This document shows positions 2,221-9,112 of a stretch of 64,000 bases of DNA, piece after piece. The notes beneath the pieces were generated by a model. It worked only from the letters and a program-made list of their open reading frames with translations. It ran no database searches and had not been told where the DNA came from. Numbering within the stretch: the stretch's first letter is position 1; each line of letters begins with the position of its first letter. This DNA is from a virus. The position numbers were made by a program, and so were the translations under genes. The stretch spans positions 1 through 64,000 of the IMG/VR virus record IMGVR_UViG_3300024966_000001. One strand, 5' to 3'.

Positions 2221-2676
2221 CTAATTATGTGTTCCAGGCTTCCATCCTGTCATGACGTTTTTCTTGCAATGGTCACAGACAAGGCGCGTGCCATTAAGAG
2301 CAAGTTGCAAAAGAACCATTCTTTTATTGCGGGCGCATTCTGTGCAAATATAGGTAGGGTGATTTTCAGCTTCATGCTCAGGCTTAATTTTATAAACGAG
2401 CATTCCAGATTTGAGTTTGTGAAGAGCATAACGCGATATTTCTCTATCAAATTTTTCCTCGCTGGAGTTTTTTTCTCGCATCTCGGCTATTTGTTGCTTG
2501 AGAAGCACATTCTCGGTCTCAAGATCAGACAGTAATTTCTGGGCTAAATTTAATTTTGAATATACATCAGAAACAGCAACGTTTAATTCGTTATATTTTA
2601 AAAGCTCTTTATTGGCCTTAATAATGTCATGCGCAGTTTTTGCGGCCTGAATTGCAGCATTTATTTCTGTAAACAT
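2221..2676 (-). CDS. Hypothetical coiled-coil/zinc-ribbon protein in the cI operon
   Basis: 151-aa ORF with CTEC...CDHC; rex-like position downstream of cI. Confidence 0.75.
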   Translation of the reverse strand: MFTEINAAIQAAKTAHDIIKANKELLKYNELNVAVSDVYSKLNLAQKLLSDLETENVLLKQQIAEMREKNSSEEKFDREISRYALHKLKSGMLVYKIKPEHEAENHPTYICTECARNKRMVLLQLALNGTRLVCDHCKKNVMTGWKPGTHN

Positions 2677-2761
2677 GTTTAGTTGTTAATGTAGGTAATT
2701 ACTTCCGCCGTAGCTGAATGGATATTTTTTATTATGAATAATAGAGACGCTGAAAAAAAAC

Positions 2762-3028
2762 TTATTGCTTTGAGTGGTGCCAGGATTCGACTTTGGTTAA
2801 GTAATCGCGAAGAAAAGTATGAGCAATTACAGAATCAGTTATTTCCTGATCATAAAATTGCTCAAAGTACATCAAATCTCGATCCGCCGAATGTAAGCGC
2901 TCGAAAGTCTTAATGACCTCTTTCAATTTATCAGAATGCGCAAATAACGCAGCTATAAGATGTTGGTGCGCTTCAAGCATTGCTTGCATTCGTCCAACTT
3001 GAACCTTTAAATCCTCAATCTCAGTCAT
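2762..3028 (-). CDS. Hypothetical protein in the cI operon
   Basis: 88-aa ORF co-oriented with cI. Confidence 0.65.
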   Translation of the reverse strand: MTEIEDLKVQVGRMQAMLEAHQHLIAALFAHSDKLKEVIKTFERLHSADRDLMYFEQFYDQEITDSVIAHTFLRDYLTKVESWHHSKQ

Positions 3029-3101
3029 AGTTAATTTTATTAGTAAGTAATTGCTTACGCCGTAGCTGATTCGACAAATTCAATAAAATAACACTTAAAT
3101 T

Positions 3102-3872
3102 TCAAGCATATCTACGTTTTGGTAATGTCGACCACCAGAATACCCAGCCTATTACCTTTACGCTTTTTGCCTCTTCAAAAGATAGTGTTTCATCAGGCCA
3201 CTCATCTCTGTTTTCACTTCTCAAGCGTAAAGCTCCGCCGGGCATTTTGTATAAGTACTTAACCCTTAATGAGCCATCGTGATCAATAGCGTACATTTCG
3301 CCATCAATAATATTAGTTGTTCCTTTGTCGATCCCTATGGCAGTGCCGTTGTGTAATTTTGGTTCCATGCTGTTTCCAGAAATAGTTGCACACGCGGCAT
3401 TGCACTCAAGAACAGCCTGGTTCTTAAGCGTTGACTTCGCAAATCTTAATTTCATCCCACAATTTTCTATAACTTCGTGGCGACTTGATCCGGCAGCCAA
3501 CTCAACTTCTCTAAAATATGGCAGCGCCACTTCATCGTCTCTCAGCGGCGTGCTGCCATCCCATAATTCTAATTCACCGAGCACATAATTAGGGGTAGGG
3601 CTTGGTAGTTCTATTCGAGTTGTCGTGCTATCGATGTAGTCAGCCAAGTCTTCGTGCATTACATCCATCCATCCAATATCTTTACCGACAGCCTGTTCTA
3701 TTTTTCGTGCCAGCGCTAAGCCAATATTCCTTTTGCTTTTCTCGCTAAAAATTTGGCTCATATATGAAGGGTCTGTGCCTATTTTTTCGGCAAACTTACC
3801 CTTATCAAGCCCAGATTCTTTTCTAAGGATCTCGTAATTTATTTTTCTGATTTCGTTAATTGTCAGTTCCAT
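3102..3872 (-). CDS. cI: CI-like repressor (XRE HTH plus S24 autopeptidase)
   Basis: N-terminal HTH, AAG cleavage site, GNSMEP serine motif, RVKYL lysine motif; divergent from cro. Confidence 0.93.
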   Translation of the reverse strand: MELTINEIRKINYEILRKESGLDKGKFAEKIGTDPSYMSQIFSEKSKRNIGLALARKIEQAVGKDIGWMDVMHEDLADYIDSTTTRIELPSPTPNYVLGELELWDGSTPLRDDEVALPYFREVELAAGSSRHEVIENCGMKLRFAKSTLKNQAVLECNAACATISGNSMEPKLHNGTAIGIDKGTTNIIDGEMYAIDHDGSLRVKYLYKMPGGALRLRSENRDEWPDETLSFEEAKSVKVIGWVFWWSTLPKRRYA

Positions 3873-3892
3873 TTTTTTTATTTAAACAGTAA

Positions 3893-3960
3893 TTAGCAAA
3901 TTGATAAATGTACATAACGCTAAAATTAATCTTGAATAAAAATTAGCATTACGCTAAAGT
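3893..3960 (+). promoter_or_regulatory. OR operators and PR promoter
   Basis: TTAGCAAATTGATAA (3893-3907), TGTACATAACGCTAA (3909-3923), TTAGCATTACGCTAA (3943-3957); TTGAAT-N17-TAAAGT at 3932-3960. Confidence 0.8.
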
Positions 3961-3967
3961 TACAAAC

Positions 3968-4171
3968 ATGGATATGAAAACTTTTGTCAAAACGACACCG
4001 AAGCCAGAAAGAGAGCGAATCGCCGAGATCGCAGGGACAACCGATGCGTATTTACAGCAATTAGCTGGTGGGCATCGAAAACCCAGTGCATTACTGGCTA
4101 AGCGCCTTGAAAAAGCTTCGGATAAAAAACTTACTCGAGCCGAATTACTTCCTGAAGAGTTCGGAGAATAA
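3968..4171 (+). CDS. cro: Cro/YdaS-like repressor
   Basis: 67-aa HTH (IAEIAGTTDAYLQQLAGGHRKPS...LTRAELLPE), divergent from cI. Confidence 0.9.
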   Translation: MDMKTFVKTTPKPERERIAEIAGTTDAYLQQLAGGHRKPSALLAKRLEKASDKKLTRAELLPEEFGE

Positions 4172-4194
4172 ACAATCACACCCCGGTCCGAACA

Positions 4195-4530
4195 ATGAAC
4201 AATATTTCACGCGAAAAACCAATTGATTACGAAAAATTGAGCGAAGGACTCTGTGAAGCCCGTAATAGCTCTCTTGAGATGTTTTCTCGCTCAATTCGCG
4301 ACCAATTCAACAAAAAAGGAAAAGCCATGCCTAGCCCAAATATGTCAAACACGAAGAAAGACCACGTTGGCTTGATATACCAGCATGTTGCTAGCCACGT
4401 TATGACACATAGCTGCGTCCATATAGATGAAAAGGGCGCTAGCACCATGCTAATTCCATCGGCAGATGAAATTGCTGAGAAATTATGCTCAGCATTTGAA
4501 AAGCTCAACGACCGCGTAAAAGAGTGGTGA
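4195..4530 (+). CDS. Hypothetical protein
   Basis: 111-aa ORF following cro. Confidence 0.55.
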   Translation: MNNISREKPIDYEKLSEGLCEARNSSLEMFSRSIRDQFNKKGKAMPSPNMSNTKKDHVGLIYQHVASHVMTHSCVHIDEKGASTMLIPSADEIAEKLCSAFEKLNDRVKEW

Positions 4531-4702
4531 GATCTTTGATTTCTCTGGTAAGTGCCATAACGATTCCTTTTTTTGATGCTAATGGGTCTTCCTGAATGGA
4601 TATGGCTTTTAAACATAGCGGGCAAGAGTACGCGGCGAGTTTTATTTTCTCTGCTACTGATTGGAAAGCTTTTCCGCAATGAGGACAATTTATGTTTTCC
4701 AT
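4505..4702 (-). CDS. Small zinc-ribbon protein
   Basis: MENINCPHCGK...CPLCLK, with AGGGG RBS before the ATG at 4702. Confidence 0.55.
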   Translation of the reverse strand: MENINCPHCGKAFQSVAEKIKLAAYSCPLCLKAISIQEDPLASKKGIVMALTREIKDLTTLLRGR

Positions 4703-4859
4703 GGTTTTACCCCTGTGTTGGTTGATAAATGTGAGAGTTTTAATTCTAACATTGGGGGTAATTTTTAAAGTAAAAAATGGAGGGTACATAACCCCCATTA
4801 TGAATCGTGCGCCTAATTTTAGAGGCACCCGGCGGGCAATAGAATCCGCATAACTACTT

Positions 4860-4905
4860 AGGCCGGTAGCTTAACCGGTAAAAGCACCCCGCTCATAACG
4901 GGGAG
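4860..4905 (+). tRNA. 5' part of an interrupted tRNA(CAT), Ile2 or Met
   Basis: AGGCCGG acceptor strand, TA, D arm GCTT-AACCGGTAA-AAGC, anticodon arm CCCCG-CTCATAA-CGGGG, then AG of the variable loop. Confidence 0.88.
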
Positions 4906-4927
4906 CTTATTTGCAACAAAAATAAAT

Positions 4928-5341
4928 ATGAAGCACTGTAATCGCTGCGACACAACTTTATCTAAAGATAGTTTTGGAAAGAATATATCTAACAGTGACG
5001 GACTCCAATCGCAATGCAAGCAATGCAGAAAACATGTAAATAATGAGCAATATGCTAATAATCCTAATCGCAGAGCAAACATAAGAAGAAACCAAGATAA
5101 ATTTTATAAAGAATCAAGAGATTACGTTAATAGCATTAAGGATGTTAGTTCATGTGCTGTATGTGGAGAAAATGCTAATTGCGCATTGGATTTTCATCAT
5201 TTTGATAATAATAAAGAATTTGGAGTTTCTGAGAATATAGGTAGATTCAGTTTAACCAGGTTAAAAGTAGAAATATCAAAATGCATAATTCTGTGCGCAA
5301 ATTGCCATAGGAAAGTACATGCAAGATTACTGATTTTATAG
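4928..5341 (+). CDS. HNH endonuclease with N-terminal zinc finger, inserted within the tRNA
   Basis: CNRC...CKQC, then CAVCG...LDFHH...LCANCHRKVH; AT-rich. Confidence 0.9.
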   Translation: MKHCNRCDTTLSKDSFGKNISNSDGLQSQCKQCRKHVNNEQYANNPNRRANIRRNQDKFYKESRDYVNSIKDVSSCAVCGENANCALDFHHFDNNKEFGVSENIGRFSLTRLKVEISKCIILCANCHRKVHARLLIL

Positions 5342-5368
5342 TCGGTTCGACACCGACACGGCCTACCA
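5338..5368 (+). tRNA. 3' part of the interrupted tRNA(CAT)
   Basis: ATA, T arm GTCGG-TTCGACA-CCGAC, ACGGCCT pairing with 4860-4866, discriminator A, encoded CCA. Confidence 0.88.
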
Positions 5369-5427
5369 GATCACCCGATTGCACAGCGGGTTAATACTGC
5401 GCAGCTTGTTTTACTTTCCTGGGTTTT

Positions 5428-5455
5428 GCCCCGAGCAATCGGCGGGGCTTTTTTT
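5428..5455 (+). terminator. Rho-independent terminator (tR1-like)
   Basis: GCCCCG...CGGGGC followed by TTTTTTT. Confidence 0.75.
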
Positions 5456-5491
5456 AGACGGATTAATTTTAACAAAAAAGAGGAAGAATCT

Positions 5492-6133
5492 ATGCGAGAT
5501 CAGCCGCAGTCAGGTCAAGTTTATTCATTGACTCAGGTTATTAGGGGGCATTTGCAGAAACTGCAACATGATACTGGCATCACGATAAGTGCCTTTGTTA
5601 GTAATGTGCGTAAACATTACGAAGACACCTATTTGCTTAATTCCCAATCCATCGAATGGAGTCAATTTTCTGACCCCTACATTCGCATGACGCGTGATGC
5701 CGAAAAGTTTAACCGCTGGCTCGGTGACGACATGCTTAAGCAGCTGCCGATTGATTTGCTTGAATCAATTGTCGCCGCTTTCCCGCCCGATCGCCGGTTT
5801 CGGCTTCAAATAGAACTGTCCGGTAGGCAGGGCATGATGGCTATCCCAATGCCGACCGGAAACCCGTATGAAGACTGTGTTTTTCTTGGAAAAATCGCAA
5901 AGCAAACCGGGGAAGCCATTATTGCCATTTCCCCGTTGCTTGAGGACGGCGCCATTGATAGCCGTGATAAAGCCAAAGCGCCGTCTGCGATTGCTGAACT
6001 TGATGAGGCTATTGCCGTGATGTTTGCAATGAAGGCCATTATCGAAAGGAAAGCGCTTGGGAAGCCATCGTTTGTCATCATGGGAGTCGACCTCATGACT
6101 CCACCAAAAGCGGACCCAACAAAAATCGATTAA
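5492..6133 (+). CDS. CII/YdaT-like regulatory protein
   Basis: Position after cro; LPIDLLESIVAAFP and GEAIIAISPLLEDGAID segments resemble CII-like phage regulators; GAGG RBS. Confidence 0.55.
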   Translation: MRDQPQSGQVYSLTQVIRGHLQKLQHDTGITISAFVSNVRKHYEDTYLLNSQSIEWSQFSDPYIRMTRDAEKFNRWLGDDMLKQLPIDLLESIVAAFPPDRRFRLQIELSGRQGMMAIPMPTGNPYEDCVFLGKIAKQTGEAIIAISPLLEDGAIDSRDKAKAPSAIAELDEAIAVMFAMKAIIERKALGKPSFVIMGVDLMTPPKADPTKID

Positions 6134-6135
6134 GG

Positions 6136-6564
6136 GTGTTGATCATCATGCCAAATTCAAAAGTCGAGCAGTGGCTAATTGACAATCCTGATGTGTCTTT
6201 TAATTACGAAAATTTAGTTAAATTGATGAGGTCGAAAGGGAGTGTTGAGTGCGTTATAGAGATTAATGGAAGAAGCCAATTAGCCCGCGCTGAATACACA
6301 AAAACACCTTGGGTCACCACATTTAATATCGTGACAGATGAGGTGCAATTTACTCATTCGTCATTCAATCAATTCATTAATTTCTGCGAAGAAAGCAATG
6401 TCCTTTTCAGCAAGCAAGACTTTCTCGAAAGTACCAGAAAAATGCTCGAAATCGCGAAGAACGCTGCTCAATTTAAAGCTGTCTCGGTGCCGTTGAATAC
6501 GCCGCAGGATGTTGAGGCATTGCTGGCGTTGATGGATCGAGCAAATGCAGTTAGTCCGCTGTGA
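6136..6564 (+). CDS. Hypothetical protein
   Basis: ORF in the early right operon. Confidence 0.6.
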   Translation: MLIIMPNSKVEQWLIDNPDVSFNYENLVKLMRSKGSVECVIEINGRSQLARAEYTKTPWVTTFNIVTDEVQFTHSSFNQFINFCEESNVLFSKQDFLESTRKMLEIAKNAAQFKAVSVPLNTPQDVEALLALMDRANAVSPL

Positions 6565-6817
6565 TGACTGCACTCTTTTTATTCCAAACAACATTACTCC
6601 GACAGGACTTGGGGATTGCCGGGTATATCGGCACTATTTAGAAAAGGGCGTTAAGGGCGCTGATATGGACGCGCTACTAAGAAGGCTAGGTAACAAGCCT
6701 GATATTGTTTTACGTACTTATTACCCGCTGTTCTGGGCTACTACGTTGATAGATAGAAAGTGCGAAAAATATAAACAAATCAGTTATCCGGAATTACCGG
6801 ATAACTCAAACGATTAA
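6545..6817 (+). CDS. Hypothetical Cys-containing protein
   Basis: Overlapping co-oriented ORF with CDDC. Confidence 0.55.
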   Translation: MQLVRCDDCTLFIPNNITPTGLGDCRVYRHYLEKGVKGADMDALLRRLGNKPDIVLRTYYPLFWATTLIDRKCEKYKQISYPELPDNSND

Positions 6818-6968
6818 CAGTTCTCAGTTGCTCGAAATTTTAGAGTAACTGATTTGATTAACAGTTTTAAACCCGATACCGGCCTAGTCTGGCCAGACAA
6901 AAAGCGTTTCCTTCGTGCGCTGGCCGGTATCAACTTTTAACGAAGACTAACGAAAGGAAAGAATAATC

Positions 6969-7559
6969 ATGGCAAAGGTATTGTGGGAGTCACAGAAGGA
7001 GCTAGAGGATTATGTTTTTAATTTTATTATTAAAAATTCACAAAATCCTATTAACGGAAATAGTGTAGATGGAGTTTATCGGCAGGTTGAACTTGGATCT
7101 TATGGAATTGCAGATTTAATTACTTTCTCTTATGAAAATCATTTTTTATATATATCCATAATTGAGCTAAAGAAAGAAGTCATTGATATAAAAACAATGG
7201 CTCAGCTTTCAAGATACCACAAGGCGGTTTCAAAATATTTTGAAAAATATCATCCTGAATGCAGCATTAGAATCAGTCTTTTAGCTGTTTCTACCGATAT
7301 AAATCAAAATGATGATTCAGTATGGTTAAGTGATTATCTATTCATTAATAACGATTTTGATGTTTTTTTATGTGACTTTGATCTTGATTCTGGGGTTAGT
7401 TTTTCTAGGACCGGACGATGGTATAAAAAAAATGAAGAATTCGATAAATTTAATAAAACGATAGGACAGATTGAAGTAAATTCGTTTATGTCCTTTGGTG
7501 AAGCGGCCGTTAAGGCCGACACTGAAATATCAAAAATATTTAGTGATAACAATGGCTAG
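6969..7559 (+). CDS. Putative PD-(D/E)XK nuclease-fold protein
   Basis: E-LED...RQVELGSYGIADL...IIELKK...QLSRY pattern; AT-rich. Confidence 0.65.
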   Translation: MAKVLWESQKELEDYVFNFIIKNSQNPINGNSVDGVYRQVELGSYGIADLITFSYENHFLYISIIELKKEVIDIKTMAQLSRYHKAVSKYFEKYHPECSIRISLLAVSTDINQNDDSVWLSDYLFINNDFDVFLCDFDLDSGVSFSRTGRWYKKNEEFDKFNKTIGQIEVNSFMSFGEAAVKADTEISKIFSDNNG

Positions 7560-8448
7560 AATCAGGACAGTTAAGCCTGAATTATTCAGGCATGAGGATC
7601 TGTTCGAGCTTGAGCAAACATCTAGGCTTCCTGTGCGGCTTTCTTTTATTGCTTTGTTTACCGCATGCGATAGAGAGGGTCGGTTCAAATGGAGGTCAAG
7701 GCAATTAAAACTAGATTGTCTTCCTTATGATGAAGTTGATTTTTCACGCGTGCTTGACGCGTTAGCAACAGGCGGATTTGTTGTGAAGTATTCCGTTTTA
7801 GGCGTTGATTACGGAGTTATTCCATCATTCAAGAGCCATCAAATCATTAATAACAGGGAATCTGAAAGTGTATTGCCATCACCACCTGAATTACTTGGTG
7901 AAAAGCTTATAAAGCCAGAAAATTTGGCACCATTAGAGCCATTAATTGATGACAAACCACGCGTAGATGACGCGTGCGGCACGCCCCTTAATCTAGATCA
8001 AGGGGAAAGGGAAGGGAAGGGAAGGGAAAAGGAAGGGGAAAAGGAAGGGGAAAAGAATACTCCTAATCACAATGCGGAAAAATTCGATGAAGACAAAATT
8101 CCGCAAACTACTGGCGAGTGGATGGAGTTCTTTGTCAACCAACATGGCTTTCAATTTCACGAAGTCCAGACTGCAAAAACTATCCCGATGTATGCCGACT
8201 GGGTTAAGCGAGAAATCAGCATCGGCATTGTTGAATCCGCTATCAATGCCACGGCAAGCTGGCTTGAGCGAAGGGGAGAAAAGGGCAAGCCCGATAATCC
8301 GGGTATTTATGAAAAATTCGTAAACACAATAATCAACGAACAATCCAGATTGGAGCTAAAAAATGAACGCAGCCCGACAAGAAATCAAAAGCCCAAGGTC
8401 GATTCGGTGTTTTCTGAAAAATATGCCGGAATCGGGTCCATCCCTTAG
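7552..8448 (+). CDS. Phage replication initiator (O-like)
   Basis: MARIRTVKPELF...CDREGRF N-terminus, low-complexity linker, directly upstream of a DnaC-like ATPase. Confidence 0.8.
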   Translation: MARIRTVKPELFRHEDLFELEQTSRLPVRLSFIALFTACDREGRFKWRSRQLKLDCLPYDEVDFSRVLDALATGGFVVKYSVLGVDYGVIPSFKSHQIINNRESESVLPSPPELLGEKLIKPENLAPLEPLIDDKPRVDDACGTPLNLDQGEREGKGREKEGEKEGEKNTPNHNAEKFDEDKIPQTTGEWMEFFVNQHGFQFHEVQTAKTIPMYADWVKREISIGIVESAINATASWLERRGEKGKPDNPGIYEKFVNTIINEQSRLELKNERSPTRNQKPKVDSVFSEKYAGIGSIP

Positions 8449-9112
8449 CTCAGAAGAGCTCATGCTACAGGCGGCTGAGATAAGCAGGGAAGCAGCCGAA
8501 AAACTGGCGGAAGAGCGTCAAGCTATGCGCCAAAGTAGAGCTGAAGGACTTATGAGCAGAACTGCGATTCCGGCTCGATACAGGGATGCAGACTTGATGC
8601 CAAAGACTTCTGCGCAGGTAAAGGCGTATGCAGAAGGGAAGGCTTTTGTTGACGGATTTCAAGACAGACTGAAAACGGGTGCAGGCATGGTGATATGGGG
8701 AGATGTGGGTACCGGGAAGACGCATATGGCTTGCGCTATAGCCAATGCACTTATCGCCCAATTGCGTCCGGCGCTTTACTGCACGGCGCTTGAAGCGATT
8801 ATGTTAGTTAAATCGACCTGGAAGCGCACTGCTGGCATGTCGGAGTATGACGTATACGGGCGATTCGGAGAGCCGCAATTGCTAATCATCGATGAAATTG
8901 GGGTTCAGTGCGGAACTGATTTCGAGCGCATGGTGCTGACAAGTATCGCGGATATTCGGAGCCGTAATTGCCTACCTACAATCATTATCTCGAACCTTAA
9001 CCCAGAGGAAATGTACGGTGTTTTAGGCGAGAGAATGTTTGATCGCTTAGTTGGGTTTGGAGCGAATATTACTCACATGCCTGGGCGGTCATTGCGGTTA
9101 CGTGCAGTTTGA
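8363..9112 (+). CDS. DnaC/IstB-like AAA+ helicase loader
   Basis: GDVGTGKT Walker A, LLIIDEIG Walker B, TIIISNL, R-x-FDRL. Confidence 0.9.
   Translation: MNAARQEIKSPRSIRCFLKNMPESGPSLSSEELMLQAAEISREAAEKLAEERQAMRQSRAEGLMSRTAIPARYRDADLMPKTSAQVKAYAEGKAFVDGFQDRLKTGAGMVIWGDVGTGKTHMACAIANALIAQLRPALYCTALEAIMLVKSTWKRTAGMSEYDVYGRFGEPQLLIIDEIGVQCGTDFERMVLTSIADIRSRNCLPTIIISNLNPEEMYGVLGERMFDRLVGFGANITHMPGRSLRLRAV

What the first reader, a model, noticed from the sequence alone, without database searches (positions are those of the whole stretch)
4860..5368. tRNA(CAT) with an HNH endonuclease gene inserted in its variable loop and no intron ribozyme
Seen: joining 4860-4905 to 5338-5368 gives a 77-nt cloverleaf. 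It has intact D, anticodon and T arms, a normal 5-nt variable loop (AG|ATA), an encoded CCA, and a single acceptor mismatch (G7:A66). The 432-nt insert is a 22-nt leader plus the HNH ORF, whose TAG stop overlaps the start of the T arm. Known: bacterial tRNA introns are usually group I or II ribozymes, and free-standing phage homing endonucleases usually lie between tRNA genes. Here there is no room for a ribozyme core. C4:G69 and C5:G68 match the E. coli TilS determinants, so this may be tRNA-Ile2. Inference: the conservation of both halves suggests either a recent homing insertion or a tolerated design. Options are a tRNA whose ends fold around an mRNA in tmRNA-like fashion, a two-piece tRNA left after the loop is trimmed, protein-dependent splicing, or a tRNA scaffold that stabilises or controls the nuclease mRNA.
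Basis: partly seen in the sequence, partly recalled or inferred. Interest (0 to 1): 0.92.

Follow-up and report, generated by a model that had tools for sequence, protein, structure and literature searches.

The report
Nuclease gene splitting a phage tRNA
A selfish DNA-cutting-enzyme gene has landed cleanly inside the only tRNA gene of this temperate phage and has most likely broken it, as its relatives have done to other phage tRNA genes.

Summary
Joining 4860-4905 to 5338-5368 gives a canonical 77-nt tRNA(CAT). The 432-nt insert is a 22-nt leader plus a 137-aa HNH ORF, and its TAG stop is tRNA positions 47-49. No Rfam intron, tmRNA or other ribozyme family matched. The insert ends do not pair.

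The HNH belongs to a family closely tied to tRNA genes. A tRNA lies within 150 nt in 126 of 232 relatives' loci, and 53 of 232 ORFs end inside or against the next tRNA.

A second case occurs in enterobacterial phages. An HNH that is 41% identical splits tRNA-Thr(TGT) at the same region in four genomic contexts. Two contexts share a 100% identical ORF, which is evidence of homing. There the HNH is under purifying selection (dN/dS 0.08-0.09), but the anticodon-stem strand next to the cassette has decayed.

Best reading (about 0.7): an intron-less homing insertion by a tRNA-gene-targeting endonuclease, driven by the tRNA promoter, which leaves a dead tRNA-Ile2-like gene. A working composite RNA is not excluded.

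This scan has noted similar HNH-split phage tRNAs in at least 20 other genomes. I rate it a new variant of a known kind, of moderate interest.

The parts
4818..4845 (+). Sigma-70-like promoter (TTTAGA, 16-nt spacer, TAGAAT). It ends 14 nt before tRNA position 1 and is the likely original tRNA promoter, now driving the HNH gene.
   Evidence: Consensus scan, 9 of 12 matches. A consensus match only; promoter function is inferred.
4860..4905 (+). tRNA(CAT) 5' half: acceptor 5' strand, D arm, anticodon arm and the first two variable-loop bases (positions 1-45).
   Evidence: ARAGORN on the script-joined halves. Rfam tRNA partial hit at 4860-4913, 22.6 bits. The anticodon arm is identical to 8 uninterrupted phage tRNA(CAT) genes.
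4906..4927 (+). A-rich 22-nt leader of the HNH gene, with no obvious Shine-Dalgarno sequence.
   Evidence: Read directly from the sequence.
4928..5341 (+). HNH endonuclease gene, 137 aa. It has an N-terminal CxxC...CxxC zinc ribbon and a C-terminal HNH domain. The TAG stop is supplied by tRNA positions 47-49.
   Evidence: ORF list. PHROG phrog_2255 'HNH endonuclease', E 1.3e-31. Invariant Cys, His and Asn columns in a 14-sequence alignment. AlphaFold2 pLDDT 94.2. The best structural rows are HNH nucleases but weak: Gme HNH Z 4.8, rmsd 2.9, 60 residues aligned. No Pfam hit. GC is 0.30-0.35 against 0.42-0.52 in the flanks.
5338..5368 (+). tRNA(CAT) 3' half: the last three variable-loop bases, the T arm, the acceptor 3' strand, A73 and an encoded CCA.
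   Evidence: ARAGORN on the joined halves. Covered by an RNA-library contig, 5246-5433.
5428..5455 (+). Intrinsic terminator: GCCCCG, a 9-nt loop, CGGGGC, then seven T. It closes the small promoter-tRNA-terminator unit upstream of the CII-like gene at 5492-6133.
   Evidence: Read. The scan missed it because its loop limit is 8. Terminator-type Rfam near-hits fall on this spot. The CII-like assignment is phrog_4834, E 3.9e-19.

Best explanation
An intron-less homing endonuclease gene has inserted into a dispensable phage tRNA gene.

The phage carried a small self-contained unit of promoter, tRNA-Ile2-like tRNA(CAT) and terminator. It lies between its cro-side genes and its CII-like gene. A minimal mobile cassette (a short leader plus an HNH ORF that borrows its stop codon from the target) entered the gene between tRNA positions 45 and 46.

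The enzyme belongs to a family that lives in and beside tRNA genes. It presumably cuts uninterrupted tRNA alleles, so that repair copies the cassette in; this step is inferred. The cassette is now transcribed from the tRNA promoter; this is also inferred.

The tRNA is most likely non-functional. Its halves look intact because the insertion is recent, or because homing keeps placing the cassette into fresh alleles.
For: 1. There is no splicing machinery. Rfam gave no intron, ribozyme or tmRNA hit at E<=10. Only 22 non-coding nt lie in the insert. The insert ends pair no better than shuffles (208 of 500 as good).

2. The family habit is to sit at tRNA genes. Of 232 relatives' loci with a callable ORF, 126 have a tRNA within 150 nt (30 of 78 viral, 59 of 74 genomic, 37 of 80 metagenomic). 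In 53 the ORF ends inside or against the next same-strand tRNA. In all 18 with offset -10 the stop is the tRNA's U8-A9-G10 TAG. The cassette layout, a short leader plus an ORF with a borrowed stop, matches the window.

3. There is an independent second case. An HNH 41% identical splits tRNA-Thr(TGT) in P1-like phage-plasmids and other enterobacterial elements (L004-6, L082, L083, L179-181). The full element is in 4 of 5426 E. coli genomes, and 552 hold only the upstream part.

4. Mobility is shown. L179 and L180 have 100% identical ORFs but different flanks and D loops.

5. The neighbouring tRNA decays while the nuclease is kept. dN/dS is 0.08-0.09 at dS 0.38-0.76. The anticodon-stem 3' strand beside the cassette pairs 4, 3 and 0-1 of 5 in the three lineages (read by eye).

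6. The insert looks foreign and recent. The insert has lower GC than its flanks, the ORF keeps every invariant residue, and the join is gapless.

7. A published precedent exists for endonucleases that recognise tRNA-gene DNA: T4 SegB recognises the T-psi-C motif (PMC2330249, passages).
Against: - The window's halves are unusually perfect, with 20 of 21 stem pairs. The predicted fold of the 509-nt RNA keeps the acceptor, anticodon and T helices (z -2.68).
- In the Thr family the acceptor, D and T stems stay paired, with different acceptor sequences, across dS up to 0.76. Simple neutral decay would not give this. It needs repeated re-homing or selection on the tRNA-like ends.
- No uninterrupted allele of this particular tRNA or phage was found. 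Recency and presence/absence polymorphism are therefore not shown for the window itself.
- Nuclease activity and target are untested.
- The closest relative (P0002, 70% identical) could not be placed in its DNA context.
Confidence: 0.7

Rival explanations
1. The tRNA-like ends are kept because they serve the selfish element, not translation. One possibility is an RNA role: RNase P and 3'-end processing would give the HNH mRNA defined, structured and protected ends. The other is a DNA role: the halves act as homology arms that must match the target tRNA population for homing to succeed. Decoding by the tRNA is lost.
For: - In the Thr family the acceptor stem (6-7 of 7 pairs), D stem (4 of 4) and T stem (4-5 of 5) stay paired in three lineages separated by dS 0.38-0.76. 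The acceptor sequences differ but remain complementary, while only the anticodon stem decays.
- The MFE fold of the window RNA brings the ends together.
- The promoter and terminator frame the unit.
Against: - The same pattern follows from repeated homing into fresh alleles with variable co-conversion tracts.
- One RNA-library contig runs through the tRNA 3' end into the trailer (5246-5433), so at least that molecule was not trimmed there.
- There are no data on RNA ends.
Confidence: 0.15
2. The gene still yields a working tRNA-Ile2. This could be one RNA whose variable arm is the 432-nt mRNA, a two-piece tRNA after the loop is cut, or a product of host- or phage-protein-dependent cutting and ligation.
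For: - All four stems and the CCA are intact, and nothing is lost at the junction.
- The variable loop is the site where class II tRNAs tolerate extra arms (general knowledge).
- The phage has no other tRNA, and its genes use ATA codons, for example 7 of 257 codons in the repressor gene.
Against: - The insert ends form no closing helix or bulge-helix-bulge-like pairing (208 of 500 shuffles as good). An archaeal relative (L092) does have such pairing (0 of 500).
- No joined form was seen in the RNA run laid (contigs only, so weak).
- The sister Thr family has lost its anticodon stem.
- No precedent was found in four literature searches.
Confidence: 0.07
3. It is a degenerate or unrecognised self-splicing (group I or II) or other known intron whose core overlaps the ORF.
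For: - One distant relative (L197) has a sub-threshold group I intron hit directly after its HNH ORF (27.9 bits against a gathering score of 50). Some family members may therefore be intron-borne.
Against: - There is no Rfam intron hit at E<=10 over 4600-5600 with permissive filters.
- 414 of the 432 nt belong to the ORF with its stop, leaving only the 22-nt leader non-coding.
- The position is in the variable loop, not the anticodon loop used by known bacterial tRNA group I introns (general knowledge).
Confidence: 0.03
4. It is a metagenome assembly chimera that joins an HNH gene to tRNA fragments.
For: - The record is a metagenome-derived virus contig.
- The 5' junction has no independent read support.
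Against: - An RNA-library contig from another sample and study spans the 3' junction with 92 nt and 96 nt on either side.
- The two halves fit each other as one tRNA.
- The same architecture exists in complete E. coli plasmid records.
Confidence: 0.02

Closest known systems
T4 SegB, a free-standing GIY-YIG homing endonuclease of the T4 tRNA gene cluster (PMC2330249; abstract and passages read)
   Same: It is a selfish nuclease gene living among phage tRNA genes. It recognises tRNA-gene DNA (the conserved T-psi-C motif GGTTCRANTCC) and cuts within tRNA genes of phages that lack it, driving its own inheritance. The paper discusses tRNA maturation of the primary transcript as a brake on SegB expression.
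   Different: SegB has a different nuclease fold (GIY-YIG, not HNH). It lies between tRNA genes and breaks none. The window's enzyme has no tested activity or target.
T5 F-TflI, F-TflII and F-TflIV, homing endonucleases whose ORFs lie in the T5 tRNA gene cluster (named in PMC2330249; their HNH family is recalled)
   Same: They are homing endonuclease genes that sit inside a phage tRNA region.
   Different: The T5 genome has no match to the window's HNH at E<=0.01, so this is not the same lineage. The T5 genes lie between tRNA genes.
HNH homing endonuclease genes linked to bacterial long tRNA arrays (all8564 of Anabaena; PMC8421152, passages read)
   Same: An HNH gene is conserved next to tRNA genes and is proposed to spread them. 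The window's family is also found beside tRNA genes in cellular genomes (59 of 74 loci).
   Different: There the gene sits upstream of an array and no tRNA is interrupted. Homology of all8564 to this family was not tested.
Group I introns in bacterial tRNA genes
   Same: They are mobile insertions inside a tRNA gene and can carry an endonuclease ORF.
   Different: They sit in the anticodon loop and carry a ribozyme core (general knowledge). Here the site is the variable loop, only 22 nt are non-coding, and no Rfam intron hit was found.
Archaeal bulge-helix-bulge introns and split tRNAs
   Same: They interrupt tRNA genes without a ribozyme. An archaeal relative of this HNH (L092) sits after the anticodon loop of tRNA-Gln(CTG), with a 12-bp helix joining the insert ends.
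   Different: The window's insert ends do not pair. It is a bacterial-type temperate phage, with an S24 CI-like repressor and a CII-like activator. Bacteria lack the archaeal splicing endonuclease (general knowledge).
'Enigmatic' introns in Lak megaphage tRNAs (PMC6784885; abstract and passages read)
   Same: They are inserts in phage tRNA genes that fit no known intron class.
   Different: Those inserts are described as short and in one case tRNA-like. The words HNH and endonuclease do not occur in that main text. Its supplementary tables were not seen.
tmRNA
   Same: It has tRNA-like ends enclosing a coding region.
   Different: There is no ARAGORN or Rfam tmRNA hit. A complete anticodon arm is present, and the ORF is an ordinary gene with its own ATG and family.

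Membership tests
HNH (beta-beta-alpha-Me) endonuclease | An HNH motif with catalytic His and Asn, plus zinc-binding CxxC pairs | tested here: met
   Invariant C76, C79, H90, H91, C123, N125, C126, H127 and H131 in a 14-sequence alignment. phrog_2255 'HNH endonuclease', E 1.3e-31. No Pfam hit, and no PDB sequence hit with the profile.
HNH (beta-beta-alpha-Me) endonuclease | HNH fold | tested here: inconclusive
   The model has pLDDT 94.2. Foldseek gave no match at E<=0.001. In VIA-align the best rows are HNH nucleases, but all have Z below 5: Gme HNH Z 4.8, rmsd 2.9, 60 residues aligned.
Free-standing homing endonuclease gene | Not embedded in a self-splicing intron or an intein | tested here: met
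   No intron family hit at E<=10. The ORF stands alone with a 22-nt leader.
Free-standing homing endonuclease gene | Presence/absence polymorphism among otherwise related genomes | tested here: inconclusive
   For the window, no close relative of the phage or tRNA was found. For the sister Thr family the feature is met: the full element is in 4 of 5426 E. coli genomes and only the upstream part in 552, and an identical ORF occurs in two different contexts.
Free-standing homing endonuclease gene | The enzyme cuts the allele that lacks it, and repair copies the gene in | not testable with these tools
   This needs purified enzyme and phage crosses.
T5 F-Tfl lineage of tRNA-region HNH genes | Detectable sequence homology | tested here: not met
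   No match in NC_005859 at E<=0.01.
Group I or group II intron | Ribozyme core | tested here: not met
   cmscan with permissive filters at E<=10 over 4600-5600 gave no intron family. The non-coding part of the insert is 22 nt.
Archaeal-type (bulge-helix-bulge) intron | The exon-intron junctions are brought together by pairing of the insert ends | tested here: not met
   The duplex of the first and last 45 nt has dG -11.5, and 208 of 500 shuffles are as good. The positive contrast L092 has dG -22.3 and 0 of 500. The exact bulge-helix-bulge geometry was not modelled.
tmRNA | A tRNA-like domain without an anticodon arm, plus a tag reading frame | tested here: not met
   ARAGORN finds no tmRNA in the window. 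No tmRNA family appears among the Rfam hits. A full anticodon arm is present.
tRNA-Ile2 (CAU, lysidine) | G3 or A3 paired with C70 or T70, plus C4-G69 and C5-G68 (PMC1635315) | tested here: met
   The acceptor stem is A1-T72, G2-C71, G3-C70, C4-G69, C5-G68, G6-C67, G7.A66. The criteria come from passages of PMC1635315. These are indicators from bacterial tRNAs, and the host is unknown.
Functional tRNA | A mature RNA of tRNA size that is charged | not testable with these tools
   The only RNA data are assembled contigs of one metatranscriptome. They show neither RNA ends nor small RNAs.

The most novel reading that the evidence does not exclude
The interrupted gene still makes a useful RNA. Its transcript closes its ends into a tRNA-Ile2 cloverleaf whose variable arm is a translatable 432-nt HNH mRNA, or is nicked into a two-piece tRNA. 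That would be a ribozyme-free way for a selfish gene to live inside a tRNA without killing it. In the related Thr family the acceptor, D and T arms stay paired over large synonymous divergence. This leaves room for selection on at least the tRNA-like ends.
Probability: 0.07. Interest if true: 0.85.

Novelty: new variant of a known kind. Interest (0 to 1): 0.4.

Why it matters
Homing endonucleases in phage tRNA clusters are known to sit between genes and to recognise tRNA-gene DNA. This case shows a widespread HNH family whose members also land inside tRNA genes with no intron to repair the damage. In one lineage they have persisted there for a long time under purifying selection.

That bears on three matters:
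- Accessory phage tRNA sets turn over this way: genes are broken, replaced and made chimeric by recombination within tRNA sequence.
- Annotation errors follow. PGAP calls a 99-nt 'tRNA-Thr' over half a tRNA plus the start of the nuclease gene, and leaves the nuclease gene unannotated.
- It is unclear whether the tRNA-like ends of such cassettes are merely scars or are used by the element.

If the composite RNA proved functional, it would be a new way of hosting a gene inside a tRNA.

Tried and rejected
**Searches for an uninterrupted allele or a close relative of this phage**
- A 39-mer and a 23-mer of the two halves gave 0 hits in viral contigs.
- A 23-mer of the anticodon arm found 8 unrelated phage tRNA(CAT) genes only.
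- Relatives of the downstream CII-like gene (L166, L167, 54-65% identical) carry no tRNA there.
- blastn of 4700-5500 and of 2500-8500 against named phages gave nothing useful.

**Context of the closest HNH relative (P0002, 70% identical, on an 880-bp contig)**
- The metagenome, viral and genome scans did not return that contig.
- It remains unknown whether P0002 is also bracketed by tRNA halves.

**Reads**
- The DNA run X1, which may be the source, laid only two short unrelated pieces at 90-95% likeness, so it says nothing on polymorphism.
- The RNA run X2 gave no joint and no cover over 4837-5170. These are contigs, so neither absence counts as evidence.

**Structure**
- Foldseek against the PDB found no match at E<=0.001.
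- VIA-align Z values were all under 5.
- The profile against PDB sequences gave 0 hits.
- The HNH assignment therefore rests on motifs and the PHROG family.

**Deletion scan false leads**
- L036 (379 combinations), L084, L209 and L233 have intact tRNAs on both sides. I take their hits as chimeras of two real tRNAs, judged from coordinates only.
- L048 (129) was inspected, and no clear remnant was seen.
- The crAss-like group with no tRNA in the locus showed no tRNA pieces in the 4 such loci tested with Rfam, L014, L017, L031 and L042.

**Literature**
- Four searches for an HNH or homing endonuclease gene inside a tRNA gene found no paper that describes it.
- PMC5418858 was checked by passages and concerns protein genes.
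Supplementary Table 6 of PMC6784885 (Lak tRNA introns) might bear on the comparison.

Full report
**What is there**

The window is the first 64 kb of a 73,380-base IMG/VR virus record from a freshwater sediment metagenome.

The region lies in the immunity and early region of a temperate phage:
- An S24/HTH CI-like repressor at 3102-3872 on the minus strand.
- A Cro-like gene at 3968-4171.
- An unknown ORF at 4195-4530.
- The feature itself.
- A CII-like activator at 5492-6133 (phrog_4834, E 3.9e-19).

ARAGORN finds no tRNA or tmRNA in the window. The Rfam tRNA model finds none at E<=1 in the whole record.

Joining 4860-4905 to 5338-5368 in a script gives a 77-nt tRNA(CAT). It has 20 of 21 stem pairs, a G7.A66 mismatch, a 5-nt variable loop and an encoded CCA.

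The joined sequence aligns gaplessly, at 77% identity, with an uninterrupted 77-nt phage tRNA(CAT) in L171. The variable loops are AGATA and AGACA, so the insertion is clean.

G3-C70, C4-G69 and C5-G68 point to tRNA-Ile2 by the criteria of PMC1635315 (passages).

A promoter-like site at 4818-4845 and a strong terminator at 5428-5455 frame the unit.

**The insert**

The insert spans 4906-5337, which is 432 nt. It consists of a 22-nt A-rich leader and a 137-aa ORF (4928-5341). The ORF's TAG stop is tRNA positions 47-49.

The protein has no Pfam hit. It matches phrog_2255 'HNH endonuclease' at 1.3e-31 and keeps every invariant Cys, His and Asn of its family.

The AlphaFold2 model is confident (pLDDT 94.2). 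Its structural neighbours are HNH nucleases only at weak scores, with a best Z of 4.8.

The insert has a GC content of 0.30-0.35, against 0.42-0.52 around it.

Rfam, run with permissive filters at E<=10 over 4600-5600, lists no intron, ribozyme or tmRNA family. The only relevant hit is the partial tRNA at 22.6 bits.

The first and last 45 nt of the insert pair no better than shuffled versions (208 of 500 as good). There is therefore no helix that would present the junctions to a splicing enzyme.

**The family**

Relatives were collected from three collections. In each, the best 80 loci were kept:
- Viral contigs: 106 relatives among 118 pattern matches.
- Species-representative genomes: 226 of 256.
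- Metagenome contigs: 285 of 389.

All kept loci are at most 51% identical to the window's protein. One 70% relative, P0002, is known only as a protein.

Of 232 loci with a callable ORF, a tRNA gene lies within 150 nt in 30 of 78, 59 of 74 and 37 of 80 respectively. The ORF ends inside or against the next same-strand tRNA in 17, 10 and 26.

In all 18 loci with an offset of -10, the stop codon is the TAG formed by tRNA positions 8-10.

The mobile unit is thus a short leader plus an ORF that borrows its stop from a tRNA. The window has exactly this layout, except that the borrowed TAG lies at positions 47-49.

Named phages with tRNA arrays carry the same family, annotated as HNH endonuclease (196 records). 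An example is Pectobacterium phage Wc4, where it lies between tRNA-Cys and tRNA-Leu.

A large gut-phage group has the gene with no tRNA nearby, and no tRNA pieces were seen by Rfam in the 4 such loci tested. The association is therefore strong but not universal.

**Other split tRNAs**

I ran a deletion scan. It joined every cut point upstream of each ORF to every start point around its stop, ran ARAGORN, and kept only hits that spanned the junction.

- The window gave 432 combinations and L004/L005/L006 gave 544-546, against a maximum of 98 in 78 mismatched controls.
- In the second set, L082, L083 and L181 (523-546) and L179/L180 (209-227) gave the same signal.

All eight of these loci hold one cassette, whose HNH is 41% identical to the window's (L004), inside tRNA-Thr(TGT). 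It occurs in four contexts:
- P1-like phage-plasmids. The whole element is in 4 of 5426 complete E. coli genomes, while 552 hold only the upstream backbone.
- An enterobacterial chromosome (L082).
- Two further metagenome contexts (L179, L180).

The 3' junction again lies at the variable loop, directly before the T stem.

L179 and L180 have 100% identical ORFs, but their D loops differ and their flanks beyond the tRNA are unrelated. This is direct evidence that the cassette moves between tRNA-Thr genes.

Between lineages, dS is 0.38-0.76 and dN/dS is 0.08-0.09, so the nuclease is kept by selection.

The stems, read by eye, fare as follows:
- The acceptor stems differ between lineages but remain complementary: GCTGATT/AATCAGC, GCTGGTT/AACCAGC, and GATGGTG/AACCATC with a G7.A66 mismatch.
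- The D and T stems hold.
- The anticodon-stem strand that adjoins the cassette reads GCAGT, GTATT or TGACC against CTGC-type partners. That gives 4, 3 and 0-1 pairs of 5.

A tRNA that had to decode would not lose that stem. In the P1-like copy the 5' 26 nt equal P1 trnA, and the anticodon arm resembles P1 trnT, which shows recombination within tRNA sequence.

A second class of locus shows a decayed 5' half, then the HNH, then an intact or near-intact tRNA whose 5' part overlaps the end of the ORF (by eye). In three of them the intact tRNA has the remnant's anticodon: L195 (Pro), L218 (Trp) and L254 (Gly). L242 is the fourth; its tRNA scores 27.1 bits.

One archaeal genome (L092) has the HNH after the anticodon loop of tRNA-Gln(CTG). 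Its insert ends form a 12-bp helix (0 of 500 shuffles as good).

**RNA data**

One metatranscriptome from the same kind of habitat, but from another sample and study, holds matching contigs. Two are identical to the window (3085-3840, the repressor gene, and 4197-4716) and the third, 5246-5433, differs by one letter.

The last contig bridges the HNH/3'-half junction and the tRNA 3' end, and runs into the terminator stem. This confirms the 3' junction. If the contig is RNA, it shows a molecule that was not trimmed at the tRNA 3' end.

No joined form was seen. These are contigs, so that absence carries no weight.

**Reading**

The simplest account is an intron-less homing insertion by a tRNA-gene-associated HNH endonuclease into a dispensable accessory tRNA. 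The cassette takes over the tRNA promoter.

T4 SegB is the published model for a phage endonuclease that recognises tRNA-gene DNA (PMC2330249). HNH genes beside tRNA arrays are also in print (PMC8421152).

What differs here is the position inside the gene without any ribozyme. I found this in no paper. Earlier notes of this scan report it in at least 20 other genomes. These include the P1-like Thr case, which I re-derived independently.

What remains open:
- Why the cassette-distal stems stay so well paired over large divergence. Repeated homing into fresh alleles explains it, but selection on the tRNA-like ends, as RNA or as homology arms, is not excluded.
- Whether the window's unusually perfect cloverleaf still yields any tRNA.

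I put the pseudogene reading at about 0.7, the 'ends serve the element' reading at 0.15, and a working tRNA at 0.07.

Noticed in passing
L092:2856-3288 (Pacearchaeota genome contig): tRNA-Gln(CTG) is interrupted right after the anticodon loop by a 118-aa HNH ORF. The first and last bases of the insert form a 12-bp helix next to the anticodon stem (dG -22.3, 0 of 500 shuffles as good). It may be an archaeal-type tRNA intron that carries an HNH gene.
   Followed up: partly
L197:1107-1780 (metagenome contig): A 147-aa relative of the HNH is followed directly by a sub-threshold group I intron hit at 1569-1780 (27.9 bits, gathering score 50, E 0.004). It lies between two phage ORFs, so some family members may be intron-borne.
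   Followed up: no
L162:2603-2701 (NZ_CP046005.1, E. coli plasmid p1919D3-2): RefSeq annotates a 99-nt 'tRNA-Thr' that covers the 5' tRNA half plus the first ~50 nt of the HNH ORF. The HNH gene itself is not annotated. This looks like an annotation artefact of the split gene.
   Followed up: partly
L195, L218, L254, L242: In these loci a decayed 5' tRNA half precedes the HNH gene, and an intact or near-intact tRNA follows whose first bases are the last codons of the HNH ORF. In L195, L218 and L254 it has the remnant's anticodon. The cassette seems to bring a replacement for the gene it breaks.
   Followed up: partly
18 loci with offset -10, e.g. L002:3405-3414: The HNH stop codon is always the TAG formed by tRNA positions U8-A9-G10 of the next tRNA gene (18 of 18). 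The nuclease ORF has no stop codon of its own.
   Followed up: yes
L082-L161: In cellular genomes the HNH sits beside one particular tRNA per lineage: tRNA-Gln(CTG) downstream in haloarchaea, tRNA-Met(CAT) on the opposite strand in Pyrinomonadaceae, and tRNA-Lys(CTT) or tRNA-Arg(TCG) about 80-250 nt upstream in Anaerolineae.
   Followed up: no
L163:2600-2753, L164 and L165:1600-1848: P1-like phage-plasmids carry different tRNA sets at the trnA-trnT site: Asn-Thr in P1, and Arg(TCT)-Tyr-Thr-Ser in others. The first tRNA always has the same acceptor stem (GATGGTG/CACCATC), which suggests array swapping by recombination inside tRNA genes.
   Followed up: partly
window 3085-3840, 4197-4716, 5246-5433: A freshwater-sediment metatranscriptome holds contigs for the repressor gene, the 4197-4716 stretch, and the HNH 3' end plus tRNA 3' half plus trailer; the first two are identical to the window and the third has one differing letter. 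The phage, or a near-identical one, was present and probably transcribed in a second sample.
   Followed up: no
window 4505-4828 (-): A 107-aa minus-strand ORF with CxxC pairs (weak zinc-ribbon hits only) overlaps the end of the 4195-4530 ORF and abuts the tRNA promoter region. Terminator-like hairpins on the minus strand lie at 4799-4776 and 4494-4473.
   Followed up: no
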